A program made the position numbers and the translations under genes. A stretch of DNA of 64,000 bases, taken from positions 1,704 to 65,703 of the forward strand of contig VMTD01000047.1 of NCBI GenBank assembly GCA_013791785.1. The letters run 5' to 3'. The stretch is from Methanobacteriota archaeon. GTDB lineage: Archaea; Thermoplasmatota; Thermoplasmata; SG8-5. The notes under the pieces were generated by a model that saw only the letters and a program-made list of their open reading frames with translations, was not told the DNA's origin and ran no database searches. The stretch's first letter is position 1. Each line of letters starts with the position of its first letter. This document shows, piece by piece, positions 39,392 through 63,783 of this stretch.

Positions 39392-39439
39392 ATTTTCATT
39401 TGTTCAGCGAAGCTATGGAGTCAAGGAGGTATTTGTAAA

Positions 39440-49082: not shown

Positions 49083-49275
49083 GATTTTACCTCCCATATT
49101 CACAATTTTGCGCTATGATATGCATCAATGTATATGATGGAGGGTTGAAGTTAGACACAATATATAAATTTTTATATCTCATTATTCAGATATAAATTTA
49201 ACATTGATATATTACTGCACAAATGCCGAGAACGCTCAGTCCTTCAGGGCTGAGATGAATCGGGGAGCACTCATC

Positions 49276-50334
49276 CTATTCTCCCCTTTCCCTTTCTATC
49301 AGGGCCAATTTTCTCTCTTTTATTACACCAAGACATACCTTCTGCTGGTCGATCGTGGCAGTTACTCTCGGTGACAAGTAGGTCTTTTTCATTGCCCCGA
49401 AACACTCATCTGGGAATATTTCATGCAGATGTTCTTCCCATTTAAAATGCTCCTCAACGTTGGGGAAAGTACCAAAATACAACAAATTATATCTTCCTGA
49501 GTGGCCACGATAAGCTATGGGGATGCTGCAGTGATTTTTTATGTATTCATATATTCGTTCTTTGCACTTATTTAGTCTGACAAAACAAAATACAAGTACG
49601 TAATCTGGTGGAACGAAGAACCTGGGAAATCGACACAATGGTCTTGAAATGATCCCCTCCTCCTTGAATTTTTCTATTCGCCGTTCAATCGTTCTCCTGT
49701 GAGTGTTTAATTTATTTGCTAAAAGGTGCTCATTGGTTTTGATTGCCTCTCCCCGAAGTAATTTTTTTAATATTTTGAAGCCGAGTTCCTTTATTTTATA
49801 TCCATTGATCACCAGTTCATTATTTTCTTTAAATGCTTTTTCCAGACAATAAATGCTTGAATTCGGATCATATTTGATACGAAGTTTATTATCTAAGAAT
49901 AGGACATCAGCAGGAAACCTGTTCTCCAACGGAGGTAAAATATTATCACTCACCAATCGTTCCTTCCATGTATAATAGGAAGACATATCCTTATGAAATT
50001 CGAATAATAATGTATTATAACCTTCGTCCCATGATCTAAAAGAAGCGAAGATAGATTCATCTTCGAGAAGGAACTTTTCCACCTGCTCTGTTTTTGGAAG
50101 ATCTGCTTTAACGACTGCAAAAAGAGGCCGTTCGTTAAATACTTCAGTAAAAGGATAATAGGGGCCAACAATAATATTATTCTGATAAAGTTCGTCGACC
50201 TGGGTCTTGATTGTGTTCCTATGTTTATCCAAACTTTTTGAAAGGGCGCTAATATTAACACTCACTCCATTTCCTGACACTATGTTCTCCAATATCTCAA
50301 GGTTTAACTTGTCGTTTAGCAAATCAGTCATCAA
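49276..50334 (-). CDS. putative transcriptional regulator with two winged-HTH-like segments, transcribed divergently from the hybrid hydrogenase operon
   Basis: LEILENIVSGNGVSVNISALSKSLDKHRNTIKTQVDEL and ELGFKILKKLLRGEAIKTNEHLLANKLNTHRRTIERRIEKFKEEGII HTH-like stretches; 215-bp AT-rich divergent intergenic region. Confidence 0.5.
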   Translation of the reverse strand: MMTDLLNDKLNLEILENIVSGNGVSVNISALSKSLDKHRNTIKTQVDELYQNNIIVGPYYPFTEVFNERPLFAVVKADLPKTEQVEKFLLEDESIFASFRSWDEGYNTLLFEFHKDMSSYYTWKERLVSDNILPPLENRFPADVLFLDNKLRIKYDPNSSIYCLEKAFKENNELVINGYKIKELGFKILKKLLRGEAIKTNEHLLANKLNTHRRTIERRIEKFKEEGIISRPLCRFPRFFVPPDYVLVFCFVRLNKCKERIYEYIKNHCSIPIAYRGHSGRYNLLYFGTFPNVEEHFKWEEHLHEIFPDECFGAMKKTYLSPRVTATIDQQKVCLGVIKERKLALIERERGE

Positions 50335-50549: not shown

Positions 50550-52322
50550 ATGAACATAATAAAATCAAATGATAATAATGACATTAGTGCTGATATATCC
50601 TCAAAACCCCGAGTAGGATTCTTTGATTTTGCAAGTTGTGAAGGGTGCCAACTTCAAATCGCCAACCTCGAAGAGGAAATTTTGGATGTTGTCGATCGAC
50701 TGGAGATTGTATCTTTTCGTGAGGTCATGAAAAATCACTCTGATGACTATGACATTGCATTTATTGAAGGTTCAATCCACAGGCCAATAGACGAGGAGCG
50801 TCTGAAAGACATACGCTCTAGAGCCGCCATCCTCATCGCTCTGGGGGACTGTGCGTGTACTGGTAGCGTGAACAAGCTTCGCAATGACTGGTCTGTGGAC
50901 AATGTCAAAGCTGAGGTGTACAGGGGTGCTGAGGCCGCCATGAAGAACAACGATTTCTTCGATATATTCCCGACAAAGAGGCTCGACGAAGTCGTTGATG
51001 TTGACTTTTACATTCGTGGATGCCCTGTCAGGAAGGAGCAGGTGCTCTACTACATTAAGCGCCTATCCTCCATGCCACCGCACAAGAATCTGGATCTGAG
51101 ATTTGGTGTCGTACCCAGGGACATTGAAAAAGATGTGCGTTCCATAATCCAGTACAATCCACAAAAGTGTATATTGTGCAGACATTGCGAGATAATATGC
51201 AATGACATTCTAAACGTCCATGCTATAGGGATAACGAATAAAGGAAATGAATCTATTGTTTCCACTCCTTTCGATATCGGGCTGGACAATAACAAGTGCA
51301 TATCATGTGGCCAGTGCCTGGTAAATTGTCCTGTGGGTGCATTCACATCTTCCTCATCCGTGGAGAGAGTCCTGGAACTCCTTGATGATCCAGAAAACTT
51401 TGTGGTGTTCGTCATAGATCCAATTGCAGTGGCTTCGGCCATGGAGATTCTGCCTACAGAGAATACGCAACTCAGACCGGTGATGGGGAGCCTGATTGCT
51501 GCCCTCAGGGACATGAATGTCAAGAAAGTGATTGATTTCACTCACTTTGGTTATCTGTCACTGGCCGCACAGGGCGAGCATGTGAAAACCCACAAGGATA
51601 TGACCTTTACCTCATGGTGTCCCAGCGCCCACAGCTACATAGAAAAGTTCCTTCCCGAGTTCAAGAAACATATTCACAAAGAAACGTCCCCGGAGTACCT
51701 GATGCTGAAAGCATTTAGAAAATGGTACGGTGATGAGAATCTCAAGATAGTGTTTCTTTCCCCTTGCATAGTTCATAAAGGCAATCCTGATTTCGACGCG
51801 GTCCTCACTGCCAGGGAGCTTCCCGGCCTGTTGAAATCCAGGGCGATTGATTTGGATTTCTATGACCCGGAGAAGGGTGCGTTCGATTGTGAACTTGGTC
51901 TGTCCAGTGTTTATGTCAAGGGCGCAAGTAGTGATTATACTTACTCATTGCCCATAATCGAGATTGCCTACATGAGCAAGTTCAACAACCTGGACGCAGG
52001 GTTAGCTGTTACCACCATAGGCGATTATGCCCATGAACTGGCCTTTGACAGCGAGGAGGGCTTTTTCAACGCTCTTGTGATCGAGGATATTACCAGGGCA
52101 AGTAAATACCTGAAAAAAGACATCAGGAAGTACAATGTTGTAGAACTCTATCCGTGTTTCCATGGTTGCTTGACCGGTGGGGGTCAGGTTCCCACAACGT
52201 CCATGGACCTGCTAAATAAGCGTCGCGACCTCCTGAAAAATTATAAAGGCGAGTGCAAGGCCAAGGATTTGTTCGTTTCCCAGATAATTTCTGCATATGA
52301 TTCGATTAAGGAGGTGGAGTGA
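50550..52322 (+). CDS. fusion protein: [NiFe]-hydrogenase small-subunit (proximal-cluster) domain + 2x[4Fe-4S] ferredoxin-like + [FeFe]-hydrogenase H-cluster domain
   Basis: FDFASCEGCQ / GDCACTG / IRGCP; CILCRHCEIICN + CISCGQCLVNCP; TSWCP (C357), SPCIVHK (C406), ELYPCFHGCLTGGGQVP (C536, C540). Confidence 0.75.
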   Translation: MNIIKSNDNNDISADISSKPRVGFFDFASCEGCQLQIANLEEEILDVVDRLEIVSFREVMKNHSDDYDIAFIEGSIHRPIDEERLKDIRSRAAILIALGDCACTGSVNKLRNDWSVDNVKAEVYRGAEAAMKNNDFFDIFPTKRLDEVVDVDFYIRGCPVRKEQVLYYIKRLSSMPPHKNLDLRFGVVPRDIEKDVRSIIQYNPQKCILCRHCEIICNDILNVHAIGITNKGNESIVSTPFDIGLDNNKCISCGQCLVNCPVGAFTSSSSVERVLELLDDPENFVVFVIDPIAVASAMEILPTENTQLRPVMGSLIAALRDMNVKKVIDFTHFGYLSLAAQGEHVKTHKDMTFTSWCPSAHSYIEKFLPEFKKHIHKETSPEYLMLKAFRKWYGDENLKIVFLSPCIVHKGNPDFDAVLTARELPGLLKSRAIDLDFYDPEKGAFDCELGLSSVYVKGASSDYTYSLPIIEIAYMSKFNNLDAGLAVTTIGDYAHELAFDSEEGFFNALVIEDITRASKYLKKDIRKYNVVELYPCFHGCLTGGGQVPTTSMDLLNKRRDLLKNYKGECKAKDLFVSQIISAYDSIKEVE

Positions 52323-52808
52323 GTGGACACCAAAGATAAGTTCATAATTGATACGATACTGGAAAAATTCACCGACATGAAAGACCCTACTTTAATGATA
52401 TTACAGAACATCCAGGAGATACTGGGATGTGTGCGAGAGGAATATCTCACATACGTGGCCGAAAGCAACGGTTATTCTTTGACAGAGTTGTATGGTATAG
52501 TATCATTCTATCCGCAGTTCAGGTTGAGCCCGCCAGGTAAACACACGATCAAGATATGCAAGGGAACAGCGTGCCATGTTCGCGGCGGTGCCGCTATTCA
52601 GAAGAACCTGCAGAACCTCCTTGGAATCAAACCAGGTGATACAACCGAGGACGGTGTTTTCACTCTGGAATCCGTGAGATGTCTGGGATGTTGTGGCCTT
52701 TCCCCGGTCATAATGATAGATAATGAAACCTATGGAAGGGTGAAAACATCAAAACTACAGGAAATTTTGGTCAAGTACAAGGGGGTGAGTGCTAATGAAA
52801 ATCAGTAA
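52323..52808 (+). CDS. NuoE/HoxE-like 2Fe-2S subunit
   Basis: CKGTACHVRGG ... CLGCCGLSP; start overlaps the upstream stop; RBS aaggaggtgg. Confidence 0.85.
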   Translation: MDTKDKFIIDTILEKFTDMKDPTLMILQNIQEILGCVREEYLTYVAESNGYSLTELYGIVSFYPQFRLSPPGKHTIKICKGTACHVRGGAAIQKNLQNLLGIKPGDTTEDGVFTLESVRCLGCCGLSPVIMIDNETYGRVKTSKLQEILVKYKGVSANENQ

Positions 52809-55800
52809 TATTTCAGACCTCGACAAAATGGCCAGGGAGGGCGAGGAAAGACTTTACAATACACGTGCCCAGTTGATATTTGGCCTTGGTACATGTGGCA
52901 TTGCAGCCGGCGGTTTGCCTCTGAAGGAATTTGCTGAGAGTTACATTGACGAGAAAAACATCAAGGCAGACATAATCTCGGTTGGCTGCATTGGTATGTG
53001 TCATGCTGAACCCCTGGTAGACGTCAAGCTTCCTGGAAAACCCAGGGTCACATATTCTGAAGTTGACCTAGAAAAGTTGAAGATAATAATCGACGAGCAC
53101 CTAATTGGCGGTACTCCCTCACGGGATATGGCCCTTTGCCAGCTGACCAAGGAGATATCCGAGTGCGATTATGGAATTATTGACGAACCAGACCTTTACG
53201 ATGACATACCAACCTATGAGGAACTCCCATTCTTTTCAAAACAGCGCAGAATAGTCCTGAGGAATTGCGGAATAGTGAATCCAGAGGACATCACAGAATA
53301 CGTGGCCAGAGGAGGATACCGGTCCGCATTCAAGGCTCTTCACGAAGTGGCCAGGGGCGGTATCATTGATGAGATGAAGATATCTGGAATCAGGGGAAGA
53401 GGAGGTGCTGGTTTCCCCACTGGACTGAAATGGGATTTCTGTAGCAGGGCTCCGGGTGATGTAAAGTACATGATTTGCAACGCGGATGAAGGCGATCCCG
53501 GCGCATACATGGACCGTGCTGTCCTTGAAGGTGACCCTCACAGTGTAATAGAGGGCATGGTGATAGGCGCATATGCCATGGGTGCCAGCCAGGGCTATAT
53601 CTACATCAGGGCAGAATATCCGCTGGCCATAGAGCGTCTGAAGAAGGCAATTGAGCAGGCTGAAACGCTTGGCATACTGGGCGATCGAGTTTTAGGTGTG
53701 GATTTCAGTTTCAGGATACACATTCGCGAAGGGGCAGGCGTGTTCGTTTGCGGTGAAGAAACAGCGCTCATCCGTTCCATCGAGGGTAAGAGGGGCGAGC
53801 CCAGGCCCAGGCCTCCGTTTCCGGCGGCCAGTGGTCTATGGGGAAAGCCCACGAACATAAACAATGTAGAGACATGGGCAAATGTGGCCATGATACTCCA
53901 GAAGGGCGGTAAATGGTTCTCCTCAATGGGAACAATGAAAAGTCCTGGCACCAAGGTTTTCTCACTGGTTGGAAAGACCGAACGTGCAGGTCTCGTTGAA
54001 GTGCCCATGGGCATTCCAATGAAGGATATAATATTCGAGATAGGGGGGGGCATCCCGGACGGCAGAAAGTTCAAGGCCGTTCAGACTGGCGGTCCATCGG
54101 GAGGCTGTATACCAGCCGAACATCTGGATATCGGAGTGGATTATGAGAACCTGAAGACCCTGGGTTCGATAGTCGGCTCTGGGGGAATGGTCGTGTTGGA
54201 TGAGGATACTTGCATGGTAGATGTTGCCAGGTATTTTCTTACGTTCACATCCGAGGAATCGTGCGGCAAATGCACACCATGCCGTGTTGGAACGCGAAGG
54301 ATGCTGGAGGTTCTGGACAAAATATGTAATGGCCATGGCGAGATGTCTGACATTGACATTCTGAAAAGTCTTTCAGTCCAGATAAGGGACAGTGCCCTGT
54401 GTGCATTAGGCGGCACCGCGCCCAACCCTGTAATGACGACGATGAAATATTTCATGAACGAGTACCTTGAGCATGTTCAGCTGAAAAAGTGCTCTGCCTC
54501 GGTTTGCGCTGCACTGTTCAAGTCACCGTGTCAGAACACATGCCCTGCAGAGACCAATGTTCCTAGTTACATCCAACTTATCAACGAAGGTAGGTTTGTG
54601 GAAGCCTATGAGGTCAACAGGGAAAACAATCCGTTCCCATCAATTTGCGGAAGGGTGTGTGAGCATCCCTGCGAACCCAGGTGCCAGCGCGGTCAACTTG
54701 ACGAGGCCATTGCCATTCGTGAGCTCAAGAGGTTCTGCTCCGACGAAGCAATCAAGGCAGGCCAACCAGCAAAAATATCAACACTGGAGAAGGTGAACAA
54801 GACCGTTGCCATCGTTGGCGGAGGCCCATCCGGCCTTTCTGCAGCATATTTCCTTGCCAGACTCGGTTACTCTCCAACAGTGTTTGAATCCGCACCAAAG
54901 GCCGGTGGATGGCTGAGATACGGAATTCCAAAATACAGATTACCACACGATGTTATTGACAAGGAAATAGAGGACATAGTCAACCTGGGTGTGGAACTCA
55001 AGACTGGAATTGCAGTTGGCCGTGACGTGACCCTCTCCAAACTTAAAGAGGAGTATGATGCAGTATATCTGGCAGTTGGGGCCCAACTTGATAAGAAACT
55101 CGGATTGGAAGGTGAAAATTTACCTGGCGTTCTTCCTGGATTGCAGGTTCTCAGGGATATCAACTCAGATAAGCCAGTCAATATTGGAGAAAAGACTCTA
55201 ATCATTGGTGGTGGCAATGTTGCAGTTGACGTTGCTCGAACAGCAGTTCGCATGGGCACTGAGGTAACTATCTGCTACCGAAGAGAGGAGCAGGACATGC
55301 CTGCCTACGATGAAGAAATTCAGCATTGCAAGGAGGAGGGCGTTGTCTATCATTTCCTGGTATCTCCCGAGAAATTGATTATAGAGAATGGCAAGGCCGT
55401 AGGCGCAGTATTCCGCAGGAATGTTATGGGTGACTTCACAAAGTGGGGCAGGAGAACGCCAGTGCCCACAGACGAGACATTGGAGGTCAGGGCAGACAGC
55501 GTTATTGTTGCCATAGGCCAGGACCTTGATGGAAGATTTGCAAAAGATTTCCATGGTGAACTTTTCAGCAAGTCCAACCTGGTAATTGCAGGTGACGGTC
55601 TTGTAACCGGTGACCCCAAGATTTTCGCAGGCGGAGACGCTGTCAGAGGCCCTGCCAGCGTCATTGATGCCATAGCCGATGGTAAGCAGGCGGCCAGAAG
55701 TATAGATATCTTCCTGGGAGGTGAGGATAGGTTTGCAGAGCTGGAGAGGTCCAACTTCAAGGATTACGGAATGGAAGAACCCAAGAACGAGGACACTCTT

Positions 55801-55944
55801 CTACGCCAGTTATCCAAAGAGCTTGATTCCCAGGAAAGAACCTGTGGATTCGAGGAAGTGGTCATGTGCCTGGACGAGGAATGTGCAAAGAAGGAGGCCT
55901 TCAGATGTCTCAGATGCGACCTCAGTGCAGAGGAGGTGAAGTAG
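52789..55944 (+). CDS. NuoF/HoxF-like fused to a GltD/NfnB-like domain (1051 aa), paralog of 33878..37099
   Basis: GIRGRGGAGFPTGLKWDF, ESCGKCTPCRVG, CEHPCEPRCQ, VGGGPSGLSAAYFL, GGGNVAVDVAR. Confidence 0.85.
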   Translation: MLMKISNISDLDKMAREGEERLYNTRAQLIFGLGTCGIAAGGLPLKEFAESYIDEKNIKADIISVGCIGMCHAEPLVDVKLPGKPRVTYSEVDLEKLKIIIDEHLIGGTPSRDMALCQLTKEISECDYGIIDEPDLYDDIPTYEELPFFSKQRRIVLRNCGIVNPEDITEYVARGGYRSAFKALHEVARGGIIDEMKISGIRGRGGAGFPTGLKWDFCSRAPGDVKYMICNADEGDPGAYMDRAVLEGDPHSVIEGMVIGAYAMGASQGYIYIRAEYPLAIERLKKAIEQAETLGILGDRVLGVDFSFRIHIREGAGVFVCGEETALIRSIEGKRGEPRPRPPFPAASGLWGKPTNINNVETWANVAMILQKGGKWFSSMGTMKSPGTKVFSLVGKTERAGLVEVPMGIPMKDIIFEIGGGIPDGRKFKAVQTGGPSGGCIPAEHLDIGVDYENLKTLGSIVGSGGMVVLDEDTCMVDVARYFLTFTSEESCGKCTPCRVGTRRMLEVLDKICNGHGEMSDIDILKSLSVQIRDSALCALGGTAPNPVMTTMKYFMNEYLEHVQLKKCSASVCAALFKSPCQNTCPAETNVPSYIQLINEGRFVEAYEVNRENNPFPSICGRVCEHPCEPRCQRGQLDEAIAIRELKRFCSDEAIKAGQPAKISTLEKVNKTVAIVGGGPSGLSAAYFLARLGYSPTVFESAPKAGGWLRYGIPKYRLPHDVIDKEIEDIVNLGVELKTGIAVGRDVTLSKLKEEYDAVYLAVGAQLDKKLGLEGENLPGVLPGLQVLRDINSDKPVNIGEKTLIIGGGNVAVDVARTAVRMGTEVTICYRREEQDMPAYDEEIQHCKEEGVVYHFLVSPEKLIIENGKAVGAVFRRNVMGDFTKWGRRTPVPTDETLEVRADSVIVAIGQDLDGRFAKDFHGELFSKSNLVIAGDGLVTGDPKIFAGGDAVRGPASVIDAIADGKQAARSIDIFLGGEDRFAELERSNFKDYGMEEPKNEDTLLRQLSKELDSQERTCGFEEVVMCLDEECAKKEAFRCLRCDLSAEEVK

Positions 55945-56628
55945 ATGTCGTCAAGTTCATTCAAGATAATGATTACCATAGATGGAAATGAAATTGCATG
56001 CAAGCCTAACCAGACCGTTCTGGATGTGGCTATAAAGAACAACATAGACATCCCAACACTTTGCTACAATCCACTCTTCAGCGAGCACAGGATAGGTGCA
56101 TGCCGGATGTGTCTTGTGGAGATAGTAGCCGGCGGACGACCCGGGTTACAGACCAGCTGTACATTGCCTGTTTCCTCGGGGCTGTCCGTGTCAACGACCA
56201 GTGAAGCAGTGTTCCAGACAAGAAGAACGGTTGTTGAACTTCTGCTTTCCGAACATGTTCAGGATTGCCGGAACTGCATTAAAAGCGGTGATTGCAGCTT
56301 TGCCAAGCTGTGTAGAGATTATGATGTTAACGGGGTGTCAGTGTGTGCGGAGTGCCCGAATCAGGAGGAGGGGTGCCTGCTTTCCAGAGGCGTGCTATGC
56401 ATGGGTCCTATAACTTACGCTGGCTGTAATGCCTATTGCACCAGGGAAGGGTACAGATGCGAGGGCTGTCACACAGTCATGGTCAATGAGGACATCCTAC
56501 GATTTGGACTGAAGGCCTACAAGGACCAGGGATTCGGCAAGGACGAAATTCTGGAAGCGGCAAAGGTGTTCTCTTTTGATTCAGTAAAGAAGCTTGAAAA
56601 GATTATGATAGAGGAGGAATTCGCATGA
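55945..56628 (+). CDS. HoxU-like 2Fe-2S/4Fe-4S electron-transfer subunit
   Basis: DIPTLCYNP..GACRMCLVEI..TSC (2Fe-2S); HVQDCRNC; CAECP; start overlaps the upstream stop. Confidence 0.7.
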   Translation: MSSSSFKIMITIDGNEIACKPNQTVLDVAIKNNIDIPTLCYNPLFSEHRIGACRMCLVEIVAGGRPGLQTSCTLPVSSGLSVSTTSEAVFQTRRTVVELLLSEHVQDCRNCIKSGDCSFAKLCRDYDVNGVSVCAECPNQEEGCLLSRGVLCMGPITYAGCNAYCTREGYRCEGCHTVMVNEDILRFGLKAYKDQGFGKDEILEAAKVFSFDSVKKLEKIMIEEEFA

Positions 56629-57923
56629 GCGAAATAAACATCAATGTGGAGCATCTGACCAGGGTCGAGGGTCACGGTAACATAGTACTCAATGCGAAGG
56701 ACGGAACCGTGGAGAATGTACAGTGGCAGGTCTCCGAGGCTCCCAGGCTCTTCGAGGCCTTTGTCAGGGATAAACCATATCATCAACTTGCCCAGATAAC
56801 TTCCAGAATATGTGGAATATGCTCCATCGGCCATACTCTTGCCTCTCTCAAGGCAACGGAAGCCGCAATGGGCATCGAGATATCGGAGCAGAGCCAGATA
56901 TTGCGAAGATTGGCCATACACGGCGAGAATATGCAGAGCCACATCCTTCATGTGGGCTATCTTGTGGCACCGGACATGTTCGGTGTTGGCAGTGTCATAC
57001 CCATGGTGGAGACCCATACCGATGCAGTGCTGGCAATTGTCAACCTGCACAGGCTTTCCAATGAATATTCTGACCTGATATGCGGCCGCACAACACATCC
57101 AACCAACCTTGTGCCAGGCGGTATTTTCAAAACTCCCTCACCGATAAAGCTGAAGCAGATGAGGCAGAGACTGGTTGACGCTGTTCCCACTGCAAATGCT
57201 GTTGCCGAGGTCGTGCTGGCCAATGCCCACGCACTTCCGGATTTCACAAGGGAAACAGAATTCATTGCACTTACCAGCGATGATGAATATGCCCTTTACG
57301 ACGGTGAAGTTGGCTCGACTGACACCGGCAGGCATTCTGTAGATGATTACCTGTCCTTGACAAATGAATTCGTGGTACCTCAATCAACAGCCAAGTATAC
57401 CAAACACAACAGAGATTCATATATGGTGGGTGCTCTTGCAAGGCTTAACCTGAATTACAATCAGCTCCATCCTCTGGCAAAATCATGGTCCGATAAGTTC
57501 GGCCTGAAGCCGGTAAACCACAACCCGTTCATGAATAATGTTGCCCAGCTTGTTGAGTTTGTTCATTCAATAGAGGATTCAATTGCCCTTATTGACAAGC
57601 TCTTTGAGACCGGGCTGAAGAAAGAGCCAACTCCCAAGATAACTCCGAAAGCTGGCCGAGGCATAGGAGCAGTCGATGTACCCCGTGGAATCCTGTTCCA
57701 CGATTATACCTATGACGAGAAAGGAATATGCCAGAAGGCCAATTGCATTATTCCCACCAACCAGAACCACAACAACATTCAGAAAGATTTCGAGGTTTTT
57801 GCACCGACTCTGCTGGACAAATCGGAAAAGGAAATTGAACTGAACTTGGAGATGCTTGTCAGGGCCTATGACCCATGCATATCTTGCTCGACCCACTATC
57901 TTAATGTAGAATGGAAAAAATAG
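56625..57923 (+). CDS. [NiFe]-hydrogenase large subunit (group 3-like), with no separate small-subunit gene in its operon
   Basis: RICGICSIGH N-terminal and DPCISCSTH C-terminal Ni-Fe ligand motifs; ~75% identical to 61900..63282. Confidence 0.85.
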   Translation: MSEININVEHLTRVEGHGNIVLNAKDGTVENVQWQVSEAPRLFEAFVRDKPYHQLAQITSRICGICSIGHTLASLKATEAAMGIEISEQSQILRRLAIHGENMQSHILHVGYLVAPDMFGVGSVIPMVETHTDAVLAIVNLHRLSNEYSDLICGRTTHPTNLVPGGIFKTPSPIKLKQMRQRLVDAVPTANAVAEVVLANAHALPDFTRETEFIALTSDDEYALYDGEVGSTDTGRHSVDDYLSLTNEFVVPQSTAKYTKHNRDSYMVGALARLNLNYNQLHPLAKSWSDKFGLKPVNHNPFMNNVAQLVEFVHSIEDSIALIDKLFETGLKKEPTPKITPKAGRGIGAVDVPRGILFHDYTYDEKGICQKANCIIPTNQNHNNIQKDFEVFAPTLLDKSEKEIELNLEMLVRAYDPCISCSTHYLNVEWKK

Positions 57924-58341: not shown

Positions 58342-58905
58342 ATGGAAAGCGTAACAAAAAAATTAGCACATGAAGAAAAGATGCATGATTTAAGTGGGAT
58401 AGAAGAACTTATAAAATCTTGTGGAGAAGGAAATGGCCTTGCACAACAAGAAGCGCGTATTGCCCTCGAAAACATCGGAGAGGCAGCAGTAGAACCCATC
58501 ATTCAGGCTCTTCTGCACTCTGAAAATCCTATCATCCGGTGGAGGGCCGCAGAGGCTCTTGGGCATATAGGTGGTCCTAGAGCAATAGAGCCATTGATAC
58601 AGGCATTAGCGGATAAGGAGACTTCCGTCCAATGGAGAGCCATAGAGGCGCTTGCAGATATTGGAGAACCCGCAATGGATTCCTTATATTTTGCTGCGGA
58701 AAATGAAAACGTGGAAATCCGATGGGGTGCCACGAGGGCTGTCAAGGACATCAAAGCGAAAATATGCATGGAAGAAAATAAATGTCTGAGTGCAAAGATG
58801 GAAGATATATGCTCTGAAAAGATTGAGATGTGTTCAGTTTGTAAGAAATACCCCGTAGTGAACTTCGGTTACTGCATTGAATGTTCAGGAAGAAGAGGAA
58901 TATAA
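58342..58905 (+). CDS. HEAT/PBS-lyase repeat protein with a C-terminal zinc ribbon
   Basis: repeated (E)ALG.IG...A...L..AL.D motif x3; CSVCKK...CIECSG. Confidence 0.6.
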   Translation: MESVTKKLAHEEKMHDLSGIEELIKSCGEGNGLAQQEARIALENIGEAAVEPIIQALLHSENPIIRWRAAEALGHIGGPRAIEPLIQALADKETSVQWRAIEALADIGEPAMDSLYFAAENENVEIRWGATRAVKDIKAKICMEENKCLSAKMEDICSEKIEMCSVCKKYPVVNFGYCIECSGRRGI

Positions 58906-59208: not shown

Positions 59209-61116
59209 ATGAAAATAATATCAAAAGAAAATTTCCACGCCTTTGTGGACTCTCTGATACAAGAGGGGTCGATGAACATTGAAGGCGTGAAGGCTAAGGA
59301 AGAAAAATTTGTATTTGGACCACTGGATTCGGCAAAGGAACTGCGTTTAGACTACGACGTGACCATACTTTCACCGAAGAAGTATTTCATGCCGCAATTC
59401 GAAACCATGATGGCTTTCGATTCGACCGGCGTTAAGAAACCAGCACCTGCAAAGCAAAAGGTCATAATCGGAATTCATCCGTATGATATTCTGGCAATAA
59501 TGCAGATGGACAAGTATTTCTTTGACACCAATGTGGACGATGCTTATTTGCAAAAGAGGAAGAACACCACAATTATAGGTATGATACCGAAAAATGTGTC
59601 TGAGAAGGCCTTTTATGGGAACATGTCCCAGCTTTTCGATTCACAGCCCGAACTTGCATTTGACCTGATGCTGGCCGACCTTGGCAACAAATATGCGATC
59701 ATGGTCGGAAGCGAAAAGGGAAAAGCAATTCTGGCGAAGGCCCAGAATGTCACGGAAGCCACGCCTGAAGAAGCCCAGCAGGTCCAGCAAATGCAGAAGG
59801 ATGTTCAGCAAAAGGCAACCAGGGACCTCAAGGCAAGCCCAAGGGCATGGCATGACCTACTCGCCGCGAATTATAATTCAGCAGTTTGGAAAGAACAAGG
59901 CGACAAATGTCTAGGGTGCGGAACCTGCACACTGGTCTGCCCAACCTGTTTCTGTTACGATGTCAAGGATGAAGTTAACCTCGACCTAACATCTGGCACA
60001 AGGATTAGAACATGGGATGGTTGCCTGCTCCGCGATTTCACCAAAGTAGCACCAGGCGAAATATTCCGCGAGAAGATTGAAGACCGGTACAGGCATCGTT
60101 TCAACAGGAAGGGCCAGTATCTCCCCGATATGCTGGGATTTGTGGCCTGCGTCGGCTGTGGCCGTTGCTCAAGTCAGTGCGTCCCAGACATAGCTGACCC
60201 GGTCGAGTTATTCAACAAGCTGGCTGAGGGCGGAATGGTCCCTGATGGACCTGCCTTCGAACAACCTGCAAAGATTGATGTTGCAACCATATCCGACACA
60301 ACTAACCTTTACATACCACGTCCCGCAACTTTGAAGCGCGTTGAAAAGGTGACGAAAACCGAGACATTCTTTGAAATTCAAATGGACGACGGCCAGCCAC
60401 TGGGACACCAGCCCGGCCAATTCGTCGAGGTTTCGATTATGGGTATCGGTGAAGCGCCAATTTCAGTAAGCTCAGCACCGGGTGGCAATACATTCGAGAT
60501 GGTTGTCAGAAATGTGGGAGACGTCACATCAAAGCTTCACGCATTGAAGCTAGGCGATAAAATCGGAATCCGTGGTCCTTTCGGAACCGGATTCGACGTT
60601 GAAGGCTTGAAAGGAAAGAACCTTCTGTTTGTAGCTGGCGGTCTTGGAATTGTGCCAATGAGGTCACTGATTAACCATGTGCTCAATAGCCGCAATGACT
60701 ATGGCAAGGTCCAGATTCTGTATGGCTGCAAGGAACCATGTGAGCTGCTTTTCGGTAATGAGATAAAAGCATGGCCAGATAAAGGTGCTGAGCATCTTTT
60801 AACTGTTGATAAATGCCCCGAAGGCGAGTGCTGGGAAGGCGGCATCGGTGTTGTCGGAACCCTCATCCCGAAGATCCAGTTCAATCCGCAGGATACGATG
60901 GCAATAGTGGTCGGGCCTCCAATATTCTACAGGTTCGTAATTGCTGACCTGAAGAAAATGGATGTTCCCGAACAGAACATCATTGTCTCGCTGGAAAGGC
61001 GCATGAAGTGCGGCGTTGGTAAATGTGGCCATTGCCAGATGAATGGTATTTATGTGTGCAAGGAGGGGCCTGTATTCAAACTTGCAGACCTCAAAGACAT
61101 ACCGGAGGCGTTCTAA
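59209..61116 (+). CDS. fused sulfhydrogenase-type beta (HydB-like 4Fe-4S) + gamma (HydG/PyrK-like FAD/NAD(P)H, 2Fe-2S) subunit
   Basis: CLGCGTCTLVCPTCFC and CVGCGRCSSQC clusters; then a ferredoxin-reductase fold with C-terminal CGVGKCGHCQMNGIYVC. Confidence 0.75.
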   Translation: MKIISKENFHAFVDSLIQEGSMNIEGVKAKEEKFVFGPLDSAKELRLDYDVTILSPKKYFMPQFETMMAFDSTGVKKPAPAKQKVIIGIHPYDILAIMQMDKYFFDTNVDDAYLQKRKNTTIIGMIPKNVSEKAFYGNMSQLFDSQPELAFDLMLADLGNKYAIMVGSEKGKAILAKAQNVTEATPEEAQQVQQMQKDVQQKATRDLKASPRAWHDLLAANYNSAVWKEQGDKCLGCGTCTLVCPTCFCYDVKDEVNLDLTSGTRIRTWDGCLLRDFTKVAPGEIFREKIEDRYRHRFNRKGQYLPDMLGFVACVGCGRCSSQCVPDIADPVELFNKLAEGGMVPDGPAFEQPAKIDVATISDTTNLYIPRPATLKRVEKVTKTETFFEIQMDDGQPLGHQPGQFVEVSIMGIGEAPISVSSAPGGNTFEMVVRNVGDVTSKLHALKLGDKIGIRGPFGTGFDVEGLKGKNLLFVAGGLGIVPMRSLINHVLNSRNDYGKVQILYGCKEPCELLFGNEIKAWPDKGAEHLLTVDKCPEGECWEGGIGVVGTLIPKIQFNPQDTMAIVVGPPIFYRFVIADLKKMDVPEQNIIVSLERRMKCGVGKCGHCQMNGIYVCKEGPVFKLADLKDIPEAF

Positions 61117-61898
61117 TGACAAAACCAAGAGTAGCATTTTTCGACTTTTCCAGCTGTGAGGGCTGCCAGCTTCAGGTCGTGAACCTGGAGGAAGCCATAC
61201 TCGATGTCCTGAAACTGATAGACATAGTCGAGTTCAGGGAGGCCATGAAAGAATCCTCAACAAAATACGACATCGCAATAATCGAAGGTTCGATAACCCG
61301 ACCGATTGATGTTGAGAGAATCAAAAAGATAAGGGAAAGAGCCAGCATCCTCATCGCTATGGGTGCATGCGCTCACCTCGGTGGCGTCCAGCGCATGGGA
61401 AACAAATGGACTCCTGAGGAGAACAAAGCCGAAGTTTACAAGAGACATCCTGGTTCAGAGATAACCAAGGGCGATGCTAACCCCTACTTCGCACAGCCGA
61501 GACACAGGGCGGTCGACGAAATAGTGAAAGTCGATGCAACCATACCCGGTTGTCCGATAGACTCTAATGAGTTCGCCAGGATATTGATTGCACTTCTTCA
61601 GGGCAAGAAACTGCCAATACCGGATTATCCAGTTTGCGTCGAATGCAAGAAGAACGAGAACATATGCGTGTTCGAAATTGGAGGATTCTGCATGGGCCCA
61701 ATAGCCAGAGCAGGGTGTGGGGCACCATGTCCGACCCATGGCGGTGAGTGCGAGGCATGCCGTGGTTACGTGGATCACCCGCACACCCAGGCACATAACG
61801 AAGTACTTAAAAAATATGGCCTCACACCGGAACAGATAATGAACCGGAAAACCATGTACACATATCGGTATGTTGAAGAAGCCAAAGGAGGTGAATAA
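61116..61898 (+). CDS. [NiFe]-hydrogenase small subunit (group 3b HydD-like); track start 61023 is over-extended
   Basis: FDFSSCEGCQ, GACAHLGG, IPGCP proximal-cluster motifs plus CVECKK..CMGPIARAGCGAPCP..CEAC medial/distal clusters; ATG overlaps the upstream stop (TAATGA). Confidence 0.85.
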   Translation: MTKPRVAFFDFSSCEGCQLQVVNLEEAILDVLKLIDIVEFREAMKESSTKYDIAIIEGSITRPIDVERIKKIRERASILIAMGACAHLGGVQRMGNKWTPEENKAEVYKRHPGSEITKGDANPYFAQPRHRAVDEIVKVDATIPGCPIDSNEFARILIALLQGKKLPIPDYPVCVECKKNENICVFEIGGFCMGPIARAGCGAPCPTHGGECEACRGYVDHPHTQAHNEVLKKYGLTPEQIMNRKTMYTYRYVEEAKGGE

Positions 61899-61899
61899 T

Positions 61900-63333: not shown

Positions 63334-63783
63334 ATGAACAGAGTAGCGGTTATCGGCATTGGCAACATTCTCATGTCAGACGATGGCGCAGGAGTAAAGG
63401 TACTGGAGCTTTTATTCCCATTACCGAAAGGAGTGGTCATTATCGAACTCGCCACCGGAGGCATGACCCTGTTGCACCAGTTTGACGGTCTGGATAAGGC
63501 CATCATAATCGATGCAGTGGACTTCGGCGGCAAGCCTGGCGAGGTGCGTGTTTTTAAACCTGAGGATGTAACATCCATCAAGACAGTAGGGTATTCCCTC
63601 CATGACCTGGATATCCTGAAGGTGCTGGAACTGGCTGGGAGGATGGGCACCCTGCCGAAGGCGGTTTTCATTGCAGCCATACAGCCCGCCAGCCTGGAGA
63701 TGGGGGAAGGCTTGAGTCCCGAGGTGGAAGGGGCGCTGCCGGAGCTGGCAGCGCGGGTGATGAAATTGCTCCCGGAAACCTGA
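63334..63783 (+). CDS. hydrogenase maturation endopeptidase (HycI/FrhD/HoxW family)
   Basis: VIGIGNILMSDDGAGVKV N-terminal motif and size (149 aa) typical of hydrogenase C-terminal processing proteases. Confidence 0.8.
   Translation: MNRVAVIGIGNILMSDDGAGVKVLELLFPLPKGVVIIELATGGMTLLHQFDGLDKAIIIDAVDFGGKPGEVRVFKPEDVTSIKTVGYSLHDLDILKVLELAGRMGTLPKAVFIAAIQPASLEMGEGLSPEVEGALPELAARVMKLLPET

What the first reader, a model, noticed from the sequence alone, without database searches (positions are those of the whole stretch)
50550..57923. Operon encoding a hybrid [NiFe]/[FeFe] hydrogenase coupled to a HoxEFU-like diaphorase carrying a GltD fusion
The 590-aa product of 50550..52322 has three parts. First, an N-terminal [NiFe]-hydrogenase small-subunit proximal-cluster domain (FDFASCEGCQ, GDCACTG, IRGCP), about 50% identical to the authentic small subunit at 61116..61898. 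Second, two ferredoxin CxxCxxCxxxC motifs. Third, a C-terminal [FeFe]-hydrogenase H-cluster domain with L1/L2/L3-like signatures (TSWCP, SPCIVHK, ELYPCFHGCLTGGGQVP). The Cys spacings are ~49 and ~130 aa, versus 55 and 144 in C. pasteurianum CpI as I recall it. Downstream and translationally coupled are HoxE-like, NuoF::GltD fusion, HoxU-like and a [NiFe] large subunit with intact Ni-ligand motifs. The operon has no separate small-subunit gene, so the large subunit must pair with the small-subunit domain of the fusion. One complex would then carry both a Ni-Fe site and an H-cluster, wired to an NADH/NADPH/FeS module. Fusions of [FeFe] hydrogenases to [NiFe] small subunits have only very recently been reported from archaeal metagenomes. 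This locus adds an unusual diaphorase (NuoF fused to GltD) and shows that the NiFe module is a recent duplicate of the neighbouring group-3b enzyme.
Basis: partly seen in the sequence, partly recalled or inferred. Interest (0 to 1): 0.9.

Follow-up and report, generated by a model that had tools for sequence, protein, structure and literature searches.

The report
Known archaeal hybrid [FeFe]/[NiFe] hydrogenase operon
This is a real five-gene operon for the rare "hybrid" hydrogenase that joins an iron-iron and a nickel-iron hydrogen enzyme in one complex, but this kind of operon, including its unusual NAD(P)H module, was already described from archaea in 2024.

Summary
50550-52322 encodes a 590-aa protein with a [NiFe] small-subunit proximal-cluster domain, two HydA-type [4Fe-4S] motifs and an [FeFe] H-cluster domain. 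Tightly coupled downstream genes encode NuoE-like HydC, NuoF::GltD HydB, a 2Fe-2S/4Fe-4S conduit (HydD) and a [NiFe] large subunit.

This is the "group F [FeFe] / group 3f [NiFe]" hybrid hydrogenase of Greening et al. 2024 (Cell), and that paper already describes the GltD-type domain on HydB. The exact proteins are public in Thermoplasmatota MAGs, annotated only as "4Fe-4S binding protein".

- The GltD fusion is not new. It occurs in 6 of the 8 loci I examined, counting this window.
- The NiFe module is not a recent copy of the neighbouring 3b enzyme. The large subunit is 79% identical to hybrid orthologues and 74% to the neighbour. The small-subunit domain is 51-55% identical to the neighbour's.

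I add one refinement. The small subunit is split. Its medial and distal cluster half forms the C-terminus of HydD, and HydA's N-terminal domain forms HydD's N-terminus, so the two proteins are reciprocal chimeras.

The mechanism (a Bfu-type bifurcating complex with two H2 sites) is inferred, not shown. It is a new member of a known kind, of moderate interest.

The parts
50550..52322 (+). hydA-hyhS: hybrid subunit, 590 aa
   Evidence: PF01058 + Fer4 + PF02906. AF2 model pLDDT 86.8, with Foldseek top hits T. maritima and T. kivui HydA and CpI, E 1e-24 to 1e-27. About 100 fused homologue clusters.
50604..51062 (+). [NiFe] small-subunit N-domain (res 19-171); proximal [4Fe-4S] ligands C30, C33, C101/C103, C158
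   Evidence: NCBIfam sulfhyd_HydD model positions 5-182 of 261. 55% identical to the 3b small subunit. C30 and C158 invariant, C101 nearly invariant in 63 homologues.
51147..51353 (+). HydA-type F-domain (res 200-268): two CxxCxxCxxxC [4Fe-4S] motifs
   Evidence: Searched alone, this segment hits bifurcating HydA best (8a6t_A, 2e-17), then NuoG-like domains and CpI. FrhG-type small subunits are not in the top 60. All 8 Cys invariant.
51423..52247 (+). [FeFe] H-cluster domain (res 292-566). Cluster Cys: C357 (L1 SWCP), C406 (L2 SPCIVHK), C536 and C540 (L3 YPCFHGCLTGGGQ)
   Evidence: PF02906 E 1.1e-24. Residue alignment to 8a6t_A, 7p5h_A and CpI. C406, C536, C540 and GGG invariant; S355, W356, C357 and K410 at least 90% conserved.
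52323..52808 (+). hydC: NuoE/HoxE-like thioredoxin-fold [2Fe-2S] subunit (C79, C84, C120, C124)
   Evidence: PF01257 E 2.7e-45. Motifs located.
52789..55944 (+). hydB: NuoF-type FMN/NAD(H) subunit fused to a GltD/NfnL-type FAD/NADP(H) domain. The start may be the ATG at 52795.
   Evidence: PF01512, PF10589, PF14691, PF07992. NuoF core best hit 7t2r_B (A. mobile NiFe-Bfu HydB), E 7e-209. GltD part 578-1044 best hits NfnA/StnC, 9bov_A 1.4e-111.
52867..54489 (+). HydB Bfu-type core (res 27-567): N-terminal Cys site (C36, C67, C71), GRGGAG FMN/NAD site, CGKCTPC [4Fe-4S], hinge H562-x5-C568-x4-C573
   Evidence: Alignment to 7t2r_B, 9bov_B and 9n5u_B, including the hinge His/Cys motif. Motifs located.
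54490..55923 (+). HydB GltD/NfnL-like domain (res 568-1045): Fer4_20 Cys cluster region, GGGPSG FAD motif, second Rossmann fold with the Y830-R-R tripeptide, Cys-rich C-terminal tail
   Evidence: PF14691 E 5e-21, PF07992 E 2.5e-28. NCBIfam PRK12771, 503 bits..
55945..56628 (+). hydD: conduit subunit, 227 aa, four predicted FeS clusters
55963..56331 (+). HydD N-half (res 7-129) = N-terminal domain of HydA/NuoG: [2Fe-2S] (C40, C53, C56, C72) and His-ligated [4Fe-4S] (H104, C108, C111, C117)
   Evidence: PF13510 and PF10588. FeFe_hydrog_A6 model positions 1-126. 7q4v_A E 3e-25.
56335..56613 (+). HydD C-half (res 131-223) = C-terminal half of a group 3 [NiFe] small subunit (medial and distal [4Fe-4S]; C134, C137, C144, C152, C161, C165, C172, C175)
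   Evidence: sulfhyd_HydD model 164-254 of 261, E 1.5e-13. P. furiosus SH1 delta 9nez_A 162-253, E 5e-13. 42% identical over 65 aa to the window's 3b small subunit. All 8 Cys aligned in 7 loci.
56625..57923 (+). hyhL: group 3 [NiFe] large subunit, 432 aa. Ni-Fe ligands C63, C66, C418, C421. 8-residue C-terminal tail after H424.
   Evidence: PF00374. Nearest NCBIfam models are the sulfhydrogenase alpha subunits, below cutoff. Motifs located. 74% identical to the 3b large subunit.
49276..50334 (-). Divergently transcribed ~350-aa putative HTH regulator, conserved next to hybrid operons of this clade
   Evidence: Weak Lrs14/Sta1/Csa3-HTH hits. ORFs of 349-350 aa lie in the corresponding positions in L002 and L003, and one L002 ORF carries faint HTH Pfam hits; their sequences were not compared with the window protein.
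58342..58905 (+). HEAT-repeat protein with a Cys-rich C-terminus, between the hybrid and 3b operons
   Evidence: PF13646 E 1.6e-20. Also present in L002 and L003. Role unknown.
59209..63282 (+). Neighbouring conventional group 3b [NiFe] hydrogenase: fused beta-gamma (59209-61116), delta (61116-61898), alpha (61870-63282)
   Evidence: The same tandem arrangement occurs in L007 and partly in L002.
63334..63783 (+). HycI-type large-subunit endopeptidase, probably serving both large subunits (their C-termini are nearly identical)
   Evidence: PF01750 E 9e-25. HycI directly follows hyhL in L003, L004, L006 and L009. Sharing is an inference.

Best explanation
The locus encodes a group F [FeFe] / group 3f [NiFe] hybrid hydrogenase (hydA-hyhS, hydC, hydB, hydD, hyhL) of a Thermoplasmatota archaeon.

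Shown by sequence and structure comparison:
- Two polypeptides are reciprocal chimeras. The hybrid subunit is the small-subunit N-domain (proximal cluster) joined to the HydA F-domain and H-domain. HydD is the HydA N-domain ([2Fe-2S] plus a His-ligated [4Fe-4S]) joined to the small-subunit C-domain (medial and distal clusters).
- HydB and HydC are a Bfu-type NuoF/NuoE core.
- HydB carries a GltD/NfnL-type FAD domain at the position where Bfu enzymes have their ferredoxin-like B3/B4 domain.

Inferred:
- The halves re-associate non-covalently. This rebuilds one complete [NiFe] small subunit docked on HyhL and one complete HydA, which locks the two hydrogenases into an obligate complex.
- Electrons from the Ni-Fe site would run through the proximal, medial and distal clusters. 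Electrons from the H-cluster would run through the two F-clusters. Both paths would converge on the HydD N-domain clusters and then on the HydB FMN/[4Fe-4S] and HydC [2Fe-2S] core.
- NAD(H) would react at the FMN. The GltD domain would provide an NADP(H)/FAD site, and its [4Fe-4S] clusters would provide the likely ferredoxin contact.
- The complex would act as a reversible bifurcating/confurcating redox valve between H2, pyridine nucleotides and ferredoxin, as Greening et al. proposed.
For: Domain architecture.

H-domain: residue-level alignment to solved HydA structures with all four H-cluster Cys present. These Cys are invariant or nearly so across 63 fused homologues. AF2 model pLDDT 86.8 with top Foldseek hits to bifurcating HydA and CpI.

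Ni-Fe ligand motifs.

Reciprocal chimera: model coordinates are complementary. Re-joined halves give single colinear HSPs to an intact 3b small subunit (46.6% identity, residues 2-236 of 260, E 6e-68) and to intact group A HydA (residues 2-526 of 573, E about 1e-73). The Fer4 pair is HydA-type. The 8 Cys of the HydD C-domain are conserved in 7 loci.

Bfu-type HydB with a conserved hinge His/Cys motif, and a GltD part homologous to the NADPH-FAD domain of NfnA/StnC: with PMC12018979.

Operon conservation in 7 further assemblies.

Published precedent: the same five-gene cluster, an AlphaFold2 complex model, and H2 evolution by an artificially matured Thermoplasmata SG8-5 fusion protein at 5% of the CrHydA1 rate (PMC11216029).
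Against: - Nothing here shows the complex assembles. I could not run a multimer prediction.
- The second sphere of the H-cluster pocket is heavily remodelled relative to group A: proton-relay Cys299 to Trp, Lys358 to His with a Lys one position later, Met353 to Ser, Met497 to Tyr, and Gln325 to Glu.
- No hydE/F/G gene lies in the 64-kb window. Greening et al. report that maturases are absent from most archaeal [FeFe] genomes. In-vivo H-cluster assembly is therefore unproven.
- The canonical Bfu ferredoxin-binding domain (B3/B4) is missing from HydB, so bifurcation to ferredoxin is not assured.
- One of the two tested homologues in the paper was barely active.
Confidence: 0.85

Rival explanations
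1. In vivo the H-domain does not turn over H2. It carries only its [4Fe-4S] subcluster, or acts as a slow H2-sensing or regulatory site. The complex would then effectively be an archaeal NiFe-Bfu hydrogenase like A. mobile HydABCSL, with the FeFe part kept as a relay, a scaffold or a sensor.
For: - Trp replaces the proton-relay Cys in every fused homologue. K358, M353 and M497 are also replaced.
- No hydEFG gene in the window. Maturases are absent from most archaeal genomes that have [FeFe] hydrogenases (PMC11216029).
- Most homologue clusters are about 500-aa short forms with a 45-residue deletion inside the H-domain (query residues 450-494), and PF02906 is often not detected in them.
- Planctomycetota homologues fuse the subunit to REC and HATPase signalling domains.
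- In the related A. mobile enzyme the H-cluster site holds a plain [4Fe-4S] (PMC9304861).
- The tested homologue Th2 was nearly inactive.
Against: - All four cluster-ligating Cys and the GGGQ loop are conserved, and this window has the long form with a clear PF02906 match.
- A homologous SG8-5 fusion protein evolved H2 after [2Fe]adt maturation.
- Active [FeFe] enzymes are made by other archaea that lack known maturases.
Confidence: 0.25
2. The complex does not bifurcate. It is a bidirectional NAD(P)-linked hydrogenase with two nucleotide sites (NADH at the NuoF FMN, NADPH at the GltD FAD). It would equilibrate H2 with both pyridine nucleotide pools, or act as an H2-linked transhydrogenase, without ferredoxin.
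For: - HydB lacks the ferredoxin-like B3/B4 domain that delivers low-potential electrons to ferredoxin in solved Bfu enzymes (PMC12018979).
- The GltD part is homologous to the NADPH-binding FAD domain of NfnA/StnC (E 1.4e-111) and keeps a YRR tripeptide that the window's other GltD-type proteins also have.
- The most divergent family member, L005, has a bare NuoF with no extra domain.
Against: - HydB's best matches are all bifurcating enzymes, and it keeps the hinge His/Cys motif said to be typical of Bfu B subunits.
- One family member, L004, has the canonical ferredoxin-like tail in the same position. This suggests the GltD [4Fe-4S] pair may substitute for B3/B4.
- NfnL-type domains contact ferredoxin through their [4Fe-4S] clusters in NfnSL. 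This point rests on my own knowledge.
Confidence: 0.25
3. The operon is a recent, lineage-specific construct made by duplicating the adjacent group 3b enzyme and fusing it to an acquired [FeFe] gene.
For: - Tandem position next to a 3b operon, seen also in L007 and L002.
- The large subunits are 74% identical.
- This clade's hybrid and 3b large subunits group together, excluding the L004 and L006 hybrid large subunits, with 87% NJ bootstrap support.
Against: - The hybrid large subunit is 79% identical to hybrid orthologues in other genomes, and the win/L002/L003 hybrid large subunits form a 95% bootstrap clade.
- The fusion's small-subunit domain is only 46-57% identical to 3b small subunits. 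The HydD C-domain is only 26-30% identical overall.
- The same chimeric architecture is shared with family members as distant as 31% identity and with a bacterium.
- Greening et al. infer an ancient origin, with the small-subunit domain monophyletic and the large subunits polyphyletic.
Confidence: 0.05

Closest known systems
Group F [FeFe] / group 3f [NiFe] hybrid hydrogenase (Greening et al. 2024, Cell 187:3357; exemplar Thermoplasmatota UBA147 sp002496385; tested proteins Th1 and Th2 from Thermoplasmata SG8-5)
   Same: An N-terminal HyhS-like domain fused to a C-terminal HydA H-domain. Contiguous hydC, hydB (with a glutamate-synthase-type domain), hydD (four FeS clusters) and hyhL. A Thermoplasmatota host. 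H-cluster Cys conserved, with altered proton-transfer residues.
   Different: Nothing in kind. I could not compare with the paper's own sequences because no supplement is held, so clade placement is indirect. My analysis assigns the two ferredoxin-type clusters of the hybrid subunit to HydA, not to the small subunit, and places the small subunit's medial and distal clusters on HydD. The paper's text ascribes three small-subunit clusters to the hybrid subunit, although its methods modelled HydD partly on MvhG (5ODC chain E).
Acetomicrobium mobile electron-bifurcating NiFe-HydABCSL (PDB 7T2R/7T30; Feng et al. 2022)
   Same: A NuoE/NuoF/NuoG-like HydC/B/A core combined with a [NiFe] large subunit and a short small subunit that has only the proximal cluster. 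HydB is the window protein's best PDB hit (E 7e-209). The small-subunit N-domain hits 7t2r_E (E 6.7e-15).
   Different: In A. mobile, HydA has lost the H-cluster, HydS is a separate protein, and HydB has a ferredoxin-like C-terminal domain instead of GltD. No small-subunit C-half is fused to a NuoG-like N-domain.
Electron-bifurcating [FeFe] hydrogenase HydABC (T. maritima 7P5H, T. kivui 8A6T, A. woodii 7Q4V)
   Same: The F-domain plus H-domain of the fusion, together with the HydD N-half, reproduce HydA colinearly. HydB and HydC are homologous. These are the best fold matches.
   Different: Here HydA is split and each half is fused to half of a [NiFe] small subunit. L1 is SWCP, not TSCCP. NCBIfam group A models score far below their cutoffs (160.9 against 765). 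HydB carries GltD.
Nfn-Bfu transhydrogenase NfnABC / StnABC (T. sibiricus 9N5U, C. saccharolyticus 9BOV, S. ovata 8OH5)
   Same: A Bfu core plus a GltD/NfnL-like FAD domain that binds NADP(H). The window's HydB residues 578-1044 match that domain at E about 1e-111 to 1e-98.
   Different: In Nfn/Stn the FAD domain is inserted in the A (NuoG-like) subunit and the B subunit keeps its ferredoxin-like domain. Here it is the C-terminal extension of the B subunit, and the enzyme has hydrogenase modules.
Group 3b [NiFe] sulfhydrogenase (P. furiosus SH1; the window's own copy at 59209-63282)
   Same: The large subunit is 74% identical to the neighbour's. The small-subunit halves are homologous to the delta subunit. 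The maturation endopeptidase is probably shared.
   Different: There are no beta or gamma subunits. The small subunit is split over two chimeric proteins. NCBIfam sulfhydrogenase models score below their cutoffs.

Membership tests
Group F [FeFe] / 3f [NiFe] hybrid hydrogenase | One polypeptide with an N-terminal group 3 small-subunit-like domain and a C-terminal [FeFe] H-cluster domain | tested here: met
   PF01058 at 30-171 and PF02906 at 292-544. Fold match to HydA and CpI.
Group F [FeFe] / 3f [NiFe] hybrid hydrogenase | Contiguous genes for HydC (NuoE-like), HydB (NuoF-like), HydD (NuoG-like conduit with four FeS clusters) and a group 3 [NiFe] large subunit | tested here: met
   The same cluster occurs in L002-L007 and L009.
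Group F [FeFe] / 3f [NiFe] hybrid hydrogenase | Cys ligands of the H-cluster and of the relay clusters conserved | tested here: met
   C357, C406, C536 and C540 align to CpI C300, C355, C499 and C503. Invariant or at least 90% conserved in 63 homologues.
Group F [FeFe] / 3f [NiFe] hybrid hydrogenase | Phylogenetic placement in the group F clade, distant from groups A-E | tested here: inconclusive
   The protein clusters with about 100 fused homologues (27-91% identity), while group A hits begin at E 3e-34 and about 30% identity.
Group F [FeFe] / 3f [NiFe] hybrid hydrogenase | H2 turnover attributable to the H-cluster after maturation | not testable with these tools
   Shown only for a homologue (Th1) in PMC11216029.
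Prototypical group A [FeFe] hydrogenase | L1 TSCCPxW with the proton-relay Cys; L2 MPCxxKxxE; L3 ExMxCxxGCxxGGGQP; family HMM above cutoff | tested here: not met
   L1 is TSWCPS, L2 is SPCIVHK and L3 is ELYPCFHGC. TIGR02512 scores 138.3 against a cutoff of 405.95. NF040763 scores 160.9 against 765.
Group 3b [NiFe] hydrogenase (sulfhydrogenase) | Large subunit with RxCGxCxxxH and DPCxxCxxH | tested here: met
   RICGICSIGH at 61-70 and DPCISCSTH at 416-424.
Group 3b [NiFe] hydrogenase (sulfhydrogenase) | Separate delta small subunit with three clusters, plus beta and gamma subunits; equivalog HMMs above cutoff | tested here: not met
   No such genes lie in 50550-57923. ShyA scores 261 against a cutoff of 700 and HydD scores 88 against 500. 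The neighbouring operon at 59209-63282 has that subunit layout: a fused beta-gamma, a separate delta and an alpha; its equivalog HMM scores are also below their cutoffs.
Bfu (BfuABC) electron-bifurcating enzyme family | B subunit with a NuoF core, FMN/NAD site, B1 [4Fe-4S] and a conserved hinge His/Cys (B2) site; C subunit NuoE-like [2Fe-2S] | tested here: met
   Best hits 7t2r_B, 9bov_B, 9n5u_B and 7q4v_B. The EHVQLKKCSASVC segment aligns to the AHIKDKRCPAKIC hinge. HydC matches PF01257.
Bfu (BfuABC) electron-bifurcating enzyme family | C-terminal ferredoxin-like 2x[4Fe-4S] domain (B3/B4) on the B subunit, the ferredoxin site | tested here: not met
   It is replaced by the GltD domain from about residue 568. 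The homologue in L004 has it.
Bfu (BfuABC) electron-bifurcating enzyme family | Measured electron bifurcation or confurcation | not testable with these tools
   No biochemical data exist for any hybrid complex (PMC11216029).
Nfn-Bfu (NfnABC/StnABC) transhydrogenase | NfnL/GltD-like FAD-NADP(H) domain inserted in the A (NuoG-like) subunit; no hydrogenase module | tested here: not met
   A homologous domain is present (9bov_A 1.4e-111, 9n5u_A 1.5e-107) but sits on the B subunit. Hydrogenase modules are present.

The most novel reading that the evidence does not exclude
The hybrid arose from one reciprocal swap. A circularly permuted hydA(C-part)-hydC-hydB-hydA(N-part) segment was inserted into a hyhS gene, so that each of two polypeptides carries half of each hydrogenase's FeS relay. 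The resulting interlocked complex funnels both H2 sites into a Bfu core whose ferredoxin domain has been replaced by an NADPH-FAD (NfnL-type) domain. It would then be an H2-coupled Nfn-like hub linking H2, NAD(H), NADP(H) and ferredoxin, possibly with the remodelled (Trp-for-Cys) H-site acting as the slow or regulatory partner. The same NuoE/NuoF::GltD module is reused 17 kb upstream with a GltB-like FMN subunit, which would make it a portable diaphorase cassette.
Probability: 0.3. Interest if true: 0.65.

Novelty: new member of a known kind. Interest (0 to 1): 0.4.

Why it matters
Hybrid [FeFe]/[NiFe] hydrogenases are the only known case where two evolutionarily unrelated H2 catalysts are physically joined. 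Their physiological role, in-vivo maturation and electron-flow logic are unknown, and no structure or native activity exists.

What this locus offers:
- A clean, complete example with intact ligands in all five subunits and an adjacent conventional 3b paralogue for comparison.
- A paralogous diaphorase module in the same window.
- A simple picture of how the complex is held together, through reciprocal chimeras of the small subunit and HydA.
- Grounds to test NADP(H) as a substrate.

It does not change the field's picture, because the kind of operon, including the GltD-bearing HydB, was published in 2024.

A practical point: public records annotate the hybrid subunit only as "4Fe-4S binding protein". 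Such operons are therefore probably under-counted, and they occur in bacteria (Planctomycetota) too.

Tried and rejected
- Recent duplication of the 3b neighbour. Rejected from identity matrices and bootstrapped NJ trees of large subunits and small-subunit N-domains.
- The two Fer4 motifs of the fusion as FrhG-type small-subunit clusters. This was suggested by the TIGR03294 match at 20-268. Rejected because the segment alone matches HydA/NuoG F-domains (2e-17) and FrhG is not among the top 60 hits.
- The H-domain substitutions as decay in this copy. Rejected because SWCP, the shifted Lys and Y/F-P-C are family-wide signatures.
- Assembly chimera. Rejected because the operon recurs in independent assemblies.
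- The genome-contig scan with the single protein returned only one locus, so relatives were reached through the search for homologous proteins and the look-up of encoding contigs instead.
- The supplement of the Cell paper (Th1/Th2 sequences, list of genomes) is not held. Identity to the tested proteins, and whether this MAG is among the 21 published genomes, could not be established.
- A literature search for Bfu + glutamate synthase + NuoF gave no paper. The Bfu classification paper does not mention a GltD-fused B subunit.
- A PDB sequence search with the GltB-like protein at 37757-39391 gave only designed TIM barrels.
- No multimer structure prediction is available, so the docking of the halves is not tested.
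- The second structure job, the representative-library search and the metagenome scan were not used. None would have changed the verdict.

Full report
**Observation**

The 590-aa product of 50550-52322 has three regions by Pfam:
- PF01058, the NuoB/[NiFe] small-subunit fold, at residues 30-171 (E 1.4e-23).
- Two ferredoxin-type 4Fe-4S motifs at 206-266.
- PF02906, the [FeFe] hydrogenase H-cluster domain, at 292-544 (E 1.1e-24, 87.9 bits against a cutoff of 22.1).

The Cys spacings are 49 and 130 residues, as stated. The N-domain is 55% identical over 147 residues to the small subunit of the neighbouring hydrogenase.

The downstream genes are:
- a NuoE/HoxE-like [2Fe-2S] protein;
- a 1051-aa NuoF core fused to a GltD-type domain (Fer4_20 plus Pyr_redox_2);
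- a 227-aa 2Fe-2S/NuoG-4Fe-4S protein;
- a [NiFe] large subunit with RICGICSIGH and DPCISCSTH.

The genes abut or overlap (TGA|GTG, a 14-20 nt overlap, TAG|ATG, ATGA), each behind a GGAGG-like motif. The operon recurs in independent assemblies, so it is not an assembly artefact.

**What it is**

The locus matches, gene for gene, the hybrid hydrogenase of Greening et al. 2024 (PMC11216029).

The paper's description of the system:
- The contiguous genes are hyhL, hydB (diaphorase), hydC (thioredoxin-like) and hydD (a conduit with four FeS clusters).
- It reports the cluster in 21 genomes, from classes that include Thermoplasmata.

The paper's experiments:
- Two fusion proteins from Thermoplasmata SG8-5 were expressed and artificially matured.
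- One evolved H2 at 5% of the Chlamydomonas HydA1 rate. The other was barely active.

The host here fits that picture:
- The nearest genome hit is a Methanomassiliicoccales-labelled MAG with a 91% identical protein.
- The exact window proteins are public in four Thermoplasmatota/Euryarchaeota MAG contigs, for example MBA3045259.1 and GCA_018899975.1. They are annotated merely as '4Fe-4S binding protein', '(2Fe-2S)-binding protein' and 'Ni/Fe hydrogenase subunit alpha'.

**Tests of the H-domain**

phmmer against PDB sequences aligns residues 183-573 to the bifurcating HydA of T. kivui (E 3e-41), T. maritima (4e-31) and CpI (about 1e-25).
- C357, C406, C536 and C540 fall on the four H-cluster ligands (CpI C300, C355, C499, C503).
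- The proton-relay Cys299 is Trp. Lys358 is His, followed by a Lys. Met353 is Ser, Met497 is Tyr and Gln325 is Glu.

I aligned 120 database relatives and a curated set of 63 fused homologues. These departures turn out to be signatures of the whole fused family. S-W-C is at least 90% conserved. C406, C536, C540 and GGG are invariant. They are not decay in this copy.

An AlphaFold2 model built on that alignment is confident (mean pLDDT 86.8, mostly above 90 in the H-domain). Its best Foldseek matches in the PDB are T. maritima and T. kivui HydA and CpI (E 1e-24 to 1e-27).

NCBIfam group A models score far below their cutoffs (160.9 against 765; 138.3 against 405.95). This is not a group A enzyme.

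**A refinement: the small subunit is split and the two proteins are reciprocal chimeras**

NCBIfam coordinates are complementary:
- The fusion covers positions 5-182 of the 261-position sulfhydrogenase delta model and positions 136-527 of the 571-position group A6 HydA model.
- HydD covers positions 1-126 of the HydA model and 164-254 of the delta model.

Supporting evidence:
- The HydD C-domain is 42% identical over 65 residues to the C-half of the window's own 3b small subunit.
- It matches P. furiosus SH1 delta residues 162-253 (E 5e-13).
- Its eight Cys align with the medial and distal cluster ligands in all seven loci examined.

I re-joined the halves in silico:
- Fusion 1-178 plus HydD 129-227 matches the intact 3b small subunit over residues 2-236 of 260, at 46.6% identity and E 6e-68, as a single colinear HSP.
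- HydD 1-128 plus fusion 179-590 matches intact group A HydA proteins over residues 2-526 of 573, at E about 1e-73, again as a single colinear HSP.

The alternative was that the two ferredoxin motifs of the fusion are FrhG-type small-subunit clusters. That is rejected. The segment alone matches HydA/NuoG F-domains (8a6t_A, 2e-17), and FrhG is not among the best 60 hits.

The rest of the small subunit is on HydD. The Cell paper's text attributes three small-subunit clusters to the hybrid subunit, although its methods used MvhG (5ODC chain E) to place cofactors in HydD. This is a refinement of that work, not a contradiction.

The gene order is [small-subunit N-half + HydA C-part], hydC, hydB, [HydA N-part + small-subunit C-half], hyhL. 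That is what insertion of a circularly permuted hydCBA segment into hyhS would give. This is my inference. L005 has a different order.

**The diaphorase**

HydB's NuoF core is most similar to the B subunits of solved bifurcating Bfu enzymes: A. mobile NiFe-HydB (E 7e-209), 9bov_B, T. sibiricus NfnB and A. woodii HydB. The hinge His/Cys motif aligns. According to PMC12018979 this His is typical of Bfu B subunits.

The GltD part (578-1044) is homologous to the NfnL-like FAD domain of NfnA/StnC (1.4e-111 to 3.8e-98). In those enzymes that domain binds NADPH and feeds mid-potential electrons to the core.

In Nfn/Stn the domain sits in the A subunit. Here it replaces the ferredoxin-like B3/B4 domain at the C-terminus of the B subunit.

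Across the family this position is variable:
- GltD in the window, L002, L003, L006, L007 and L009.
- A ferredoxin-like tail in L004.
- Nothing in L005.

The GltD fusion is therefore neither new nor specific to this locus.

**The 'recent duplicate' claim**

| Comparison | Identity |
|---|---|
| Hybrid large subunit vs neighbouring 3b large subunit | 74% |
| Hybrid large subunit vs hybrid large subunits of L002 and L003 | 79% |
| Hybrid large subunit vs hybrid large subunits of L004 and L006 | 58% |
| Fusion N-domains vs 3b small subunits | 46-57% |
| Window fusion N-domain vs the other fusion N-domains except L005 | 59-76% |
| Window fusion N-domain vs L006 | 69% |

A bootstrapped NJ tree gives:
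- 95% support for {window, L002, L003} hybrid large subunits;
- 87% for a clade uniting this lineage's hybrid and 3b large subunits to the exclusion of the L004 and L006 hybrids.

The large-subunit and small-subunit histories are discordant. This agrees with the paper's finding that the large subunits are polyphyletic while the fused small-subunit domain is monophyletic. The simplest reading is an old exchange or duplication of the large subunit between the hybrid and 3b operons in an ancestor of these Thermoplasmatota. It was not a recent duplication of the NiFe module.

**How it most likely works (inferred)**

- The halves re-associate so that a complete small subunit docks on HyhL and a complete HydA is rebuilt. 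The chimeric connectivity makes the two hydrogenases an obligate complex.
- Both H2 sites feed the HydD N-domain clusters and then the HydB-HydC core.
- NAD(H) reacts at FMN. The GltD FAD is a probable NADP(H) site, and its [4Fe-4S] clusters are the probable ferredoxin contact.
- Greening et al. favour a redox-valve role.

Two rivals remain open:
- The H-site may be a relay or sensor rather than a catalyst in vivo. The grounds are Trp for the relay Cys, no maturase in the window, abundant short forms with a 45-residue deletion in the H-domain, and REC/HATPase-fused bacterial homologues.
- The complex may be a non-bifurcating NAD(P)-linked hydrogenase, because the canonical ferredoxin domain is missing.

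**Context**

The window has no hyp or hyd maturase gene except a HycI-type endopeptidase after the 3b operon. The two large subunits have nearly identical C-termini, so they plausibly share that endopeptidase.

**Verdict**

This is a new member of a known kind. Interest is moderate: the system is remarkable and mechanistically unsolved, but it has been published.

Noticed in passing
window 32974-40774 (+): A second, paralogous diaphorase module. It comprises a NuoE-like gene (32974-33468), a 138-aa Cys-rich zinc-ribbon-like ORF (33465-33881), another NuoF::GltD fusion (33878-37099; 44% identical over its full length to HydB), and a 2Fe-2S + 2x4Fe-4S HoxU-like protein (37074-37805). These are followed by a divergent 544-aa protein with only a partial PF01645 glutamate-synthase FMN-domain match (37757-39391; no NCBIfam or PDB sequence relative) and by glutamate dehydrogenase (39440-40774). 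It looks like the same Bfu-type cassette plugged into a GltB-like catalytic subunit, and it may be an undescribed Bfu-type enzyme.
   Followed up: partly
L009 8001-16817 (JGI 3300025152, Ga0208373_1001147; P0080 is named 'Planctomycetota bacterium'): A bacterial contig carries the same operon: hybrid subunit, hydC, hydB::GltD, hydD, hyhL and hycI. Its hybrid subunit (869 aa) is additionally fused to response-regulator and HATPase domains, and it sits behind a block of two-component genes. The hybrid kind is therefore not confined to archaea and may be wired to signalling. P0071 (859 aa) is similar.
   Followed up: partly
Homologues P0027-P0094; L006 10001-11494: Most fused homologue clusters are short forms of about 495-510 aa. 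They lack query residues 450-494 (inside the H-domain) and the C-terminal helices. PF02906 is often not detected in them, yet all four H-cluster Cys are kept (SWC[KLR], PCxxxK, PCxxRC/GC). L006 shows that they sit in the same five-gene operon.
   Followed up: partly
L004 12178-14103; L005 8226-13731: The diaphorase varies within the family. HydB has a ferredoxin-like tail (641 aa) in L004. In L005 it is a bare NuoF (432 aa) and the gene order is different: hydC-hydB-fusion-hydD-hyhL.
   Followed up: partly
window 44954-47271 (-) and 47397-49103 (-): A canonical NfnAB/SudAB-like pair (a GltD-type 486-aa protein and a 286-aa FAD/NAD [2Fe-2S] protein) and a CoA-disulfide-reductase-like protein with a rhodanese domain lie just upstream of the hybrid operon. 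L003 has similar neighbours (Pyr_redox_2-rhodanese-TusA, DHODB_Fe-S_bind). This hints at a conserved NAD(P)H/sulfur redox neighbourhood.
   Followed up: partly
window 49276-50334 (-): A 352-aa protein with two weak HTH-like regions (Lrs14/Sta1/Csa3-HTH hits at E about 1e-6) is transcribed divergently from the hybrid operon across a 215-bp AT-rich spacer. ORFs of 349-350 aa flank the operon in L002 and L003. It is probably a dedicated regulator.
   Followed up: partly
window 58342-58905 (+): A HEAT/PBS-lyase-repeat protein with a Cys-rich C-terminal tail lies between the hybrid and 3b operons. HEAT-repeat proteins also sit beside the hybrid operon in L002 and L003. Its role is unknown.
   Followed up: partly
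window 50550-57923; public records MBA3045259.1, MBA3045262.1, MBA3045263.1 and others: Public annotation calls the hybrid subunit '4Fe-4S binding protein' or 'hypothetical protein', and JGI calls relatives 'coenzyme F420-reducing hydrogenase gamma subunit'. Annotation-based surveys will miss these operons.
   Followed up: yes
window 22000-31000 and 5437-8467: Several long ORFs have no Pfam hit even at E <= 1: 23951-25090, 25198-26496, 5437-7401 and 7406-8467. Two more, 28785-29705 and 29702-30580, have only sub-threshold hits (best E 0.025-0.039). Two further ORFs, 26535-27089 and 27076-27675, had no hit at E <= 1e-5. The ORFs within 22-31 kb lie in a region of lower G+C (0.39-0.46, against about 0.52-0.55 at the window start). 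An IS1-like transposase fragment lies at 14294-14905. This may be a mobile or strain-specific island.
   Followed up: no
window 15415-21727: A cluster of signalling genes: a PAS-domain protein, a TPR protein, a PAS-HATPase histidine kinase (19040-20941) and a response regulator with a 'methanogen output domain 1' (20951-21727).
   Followed up: no
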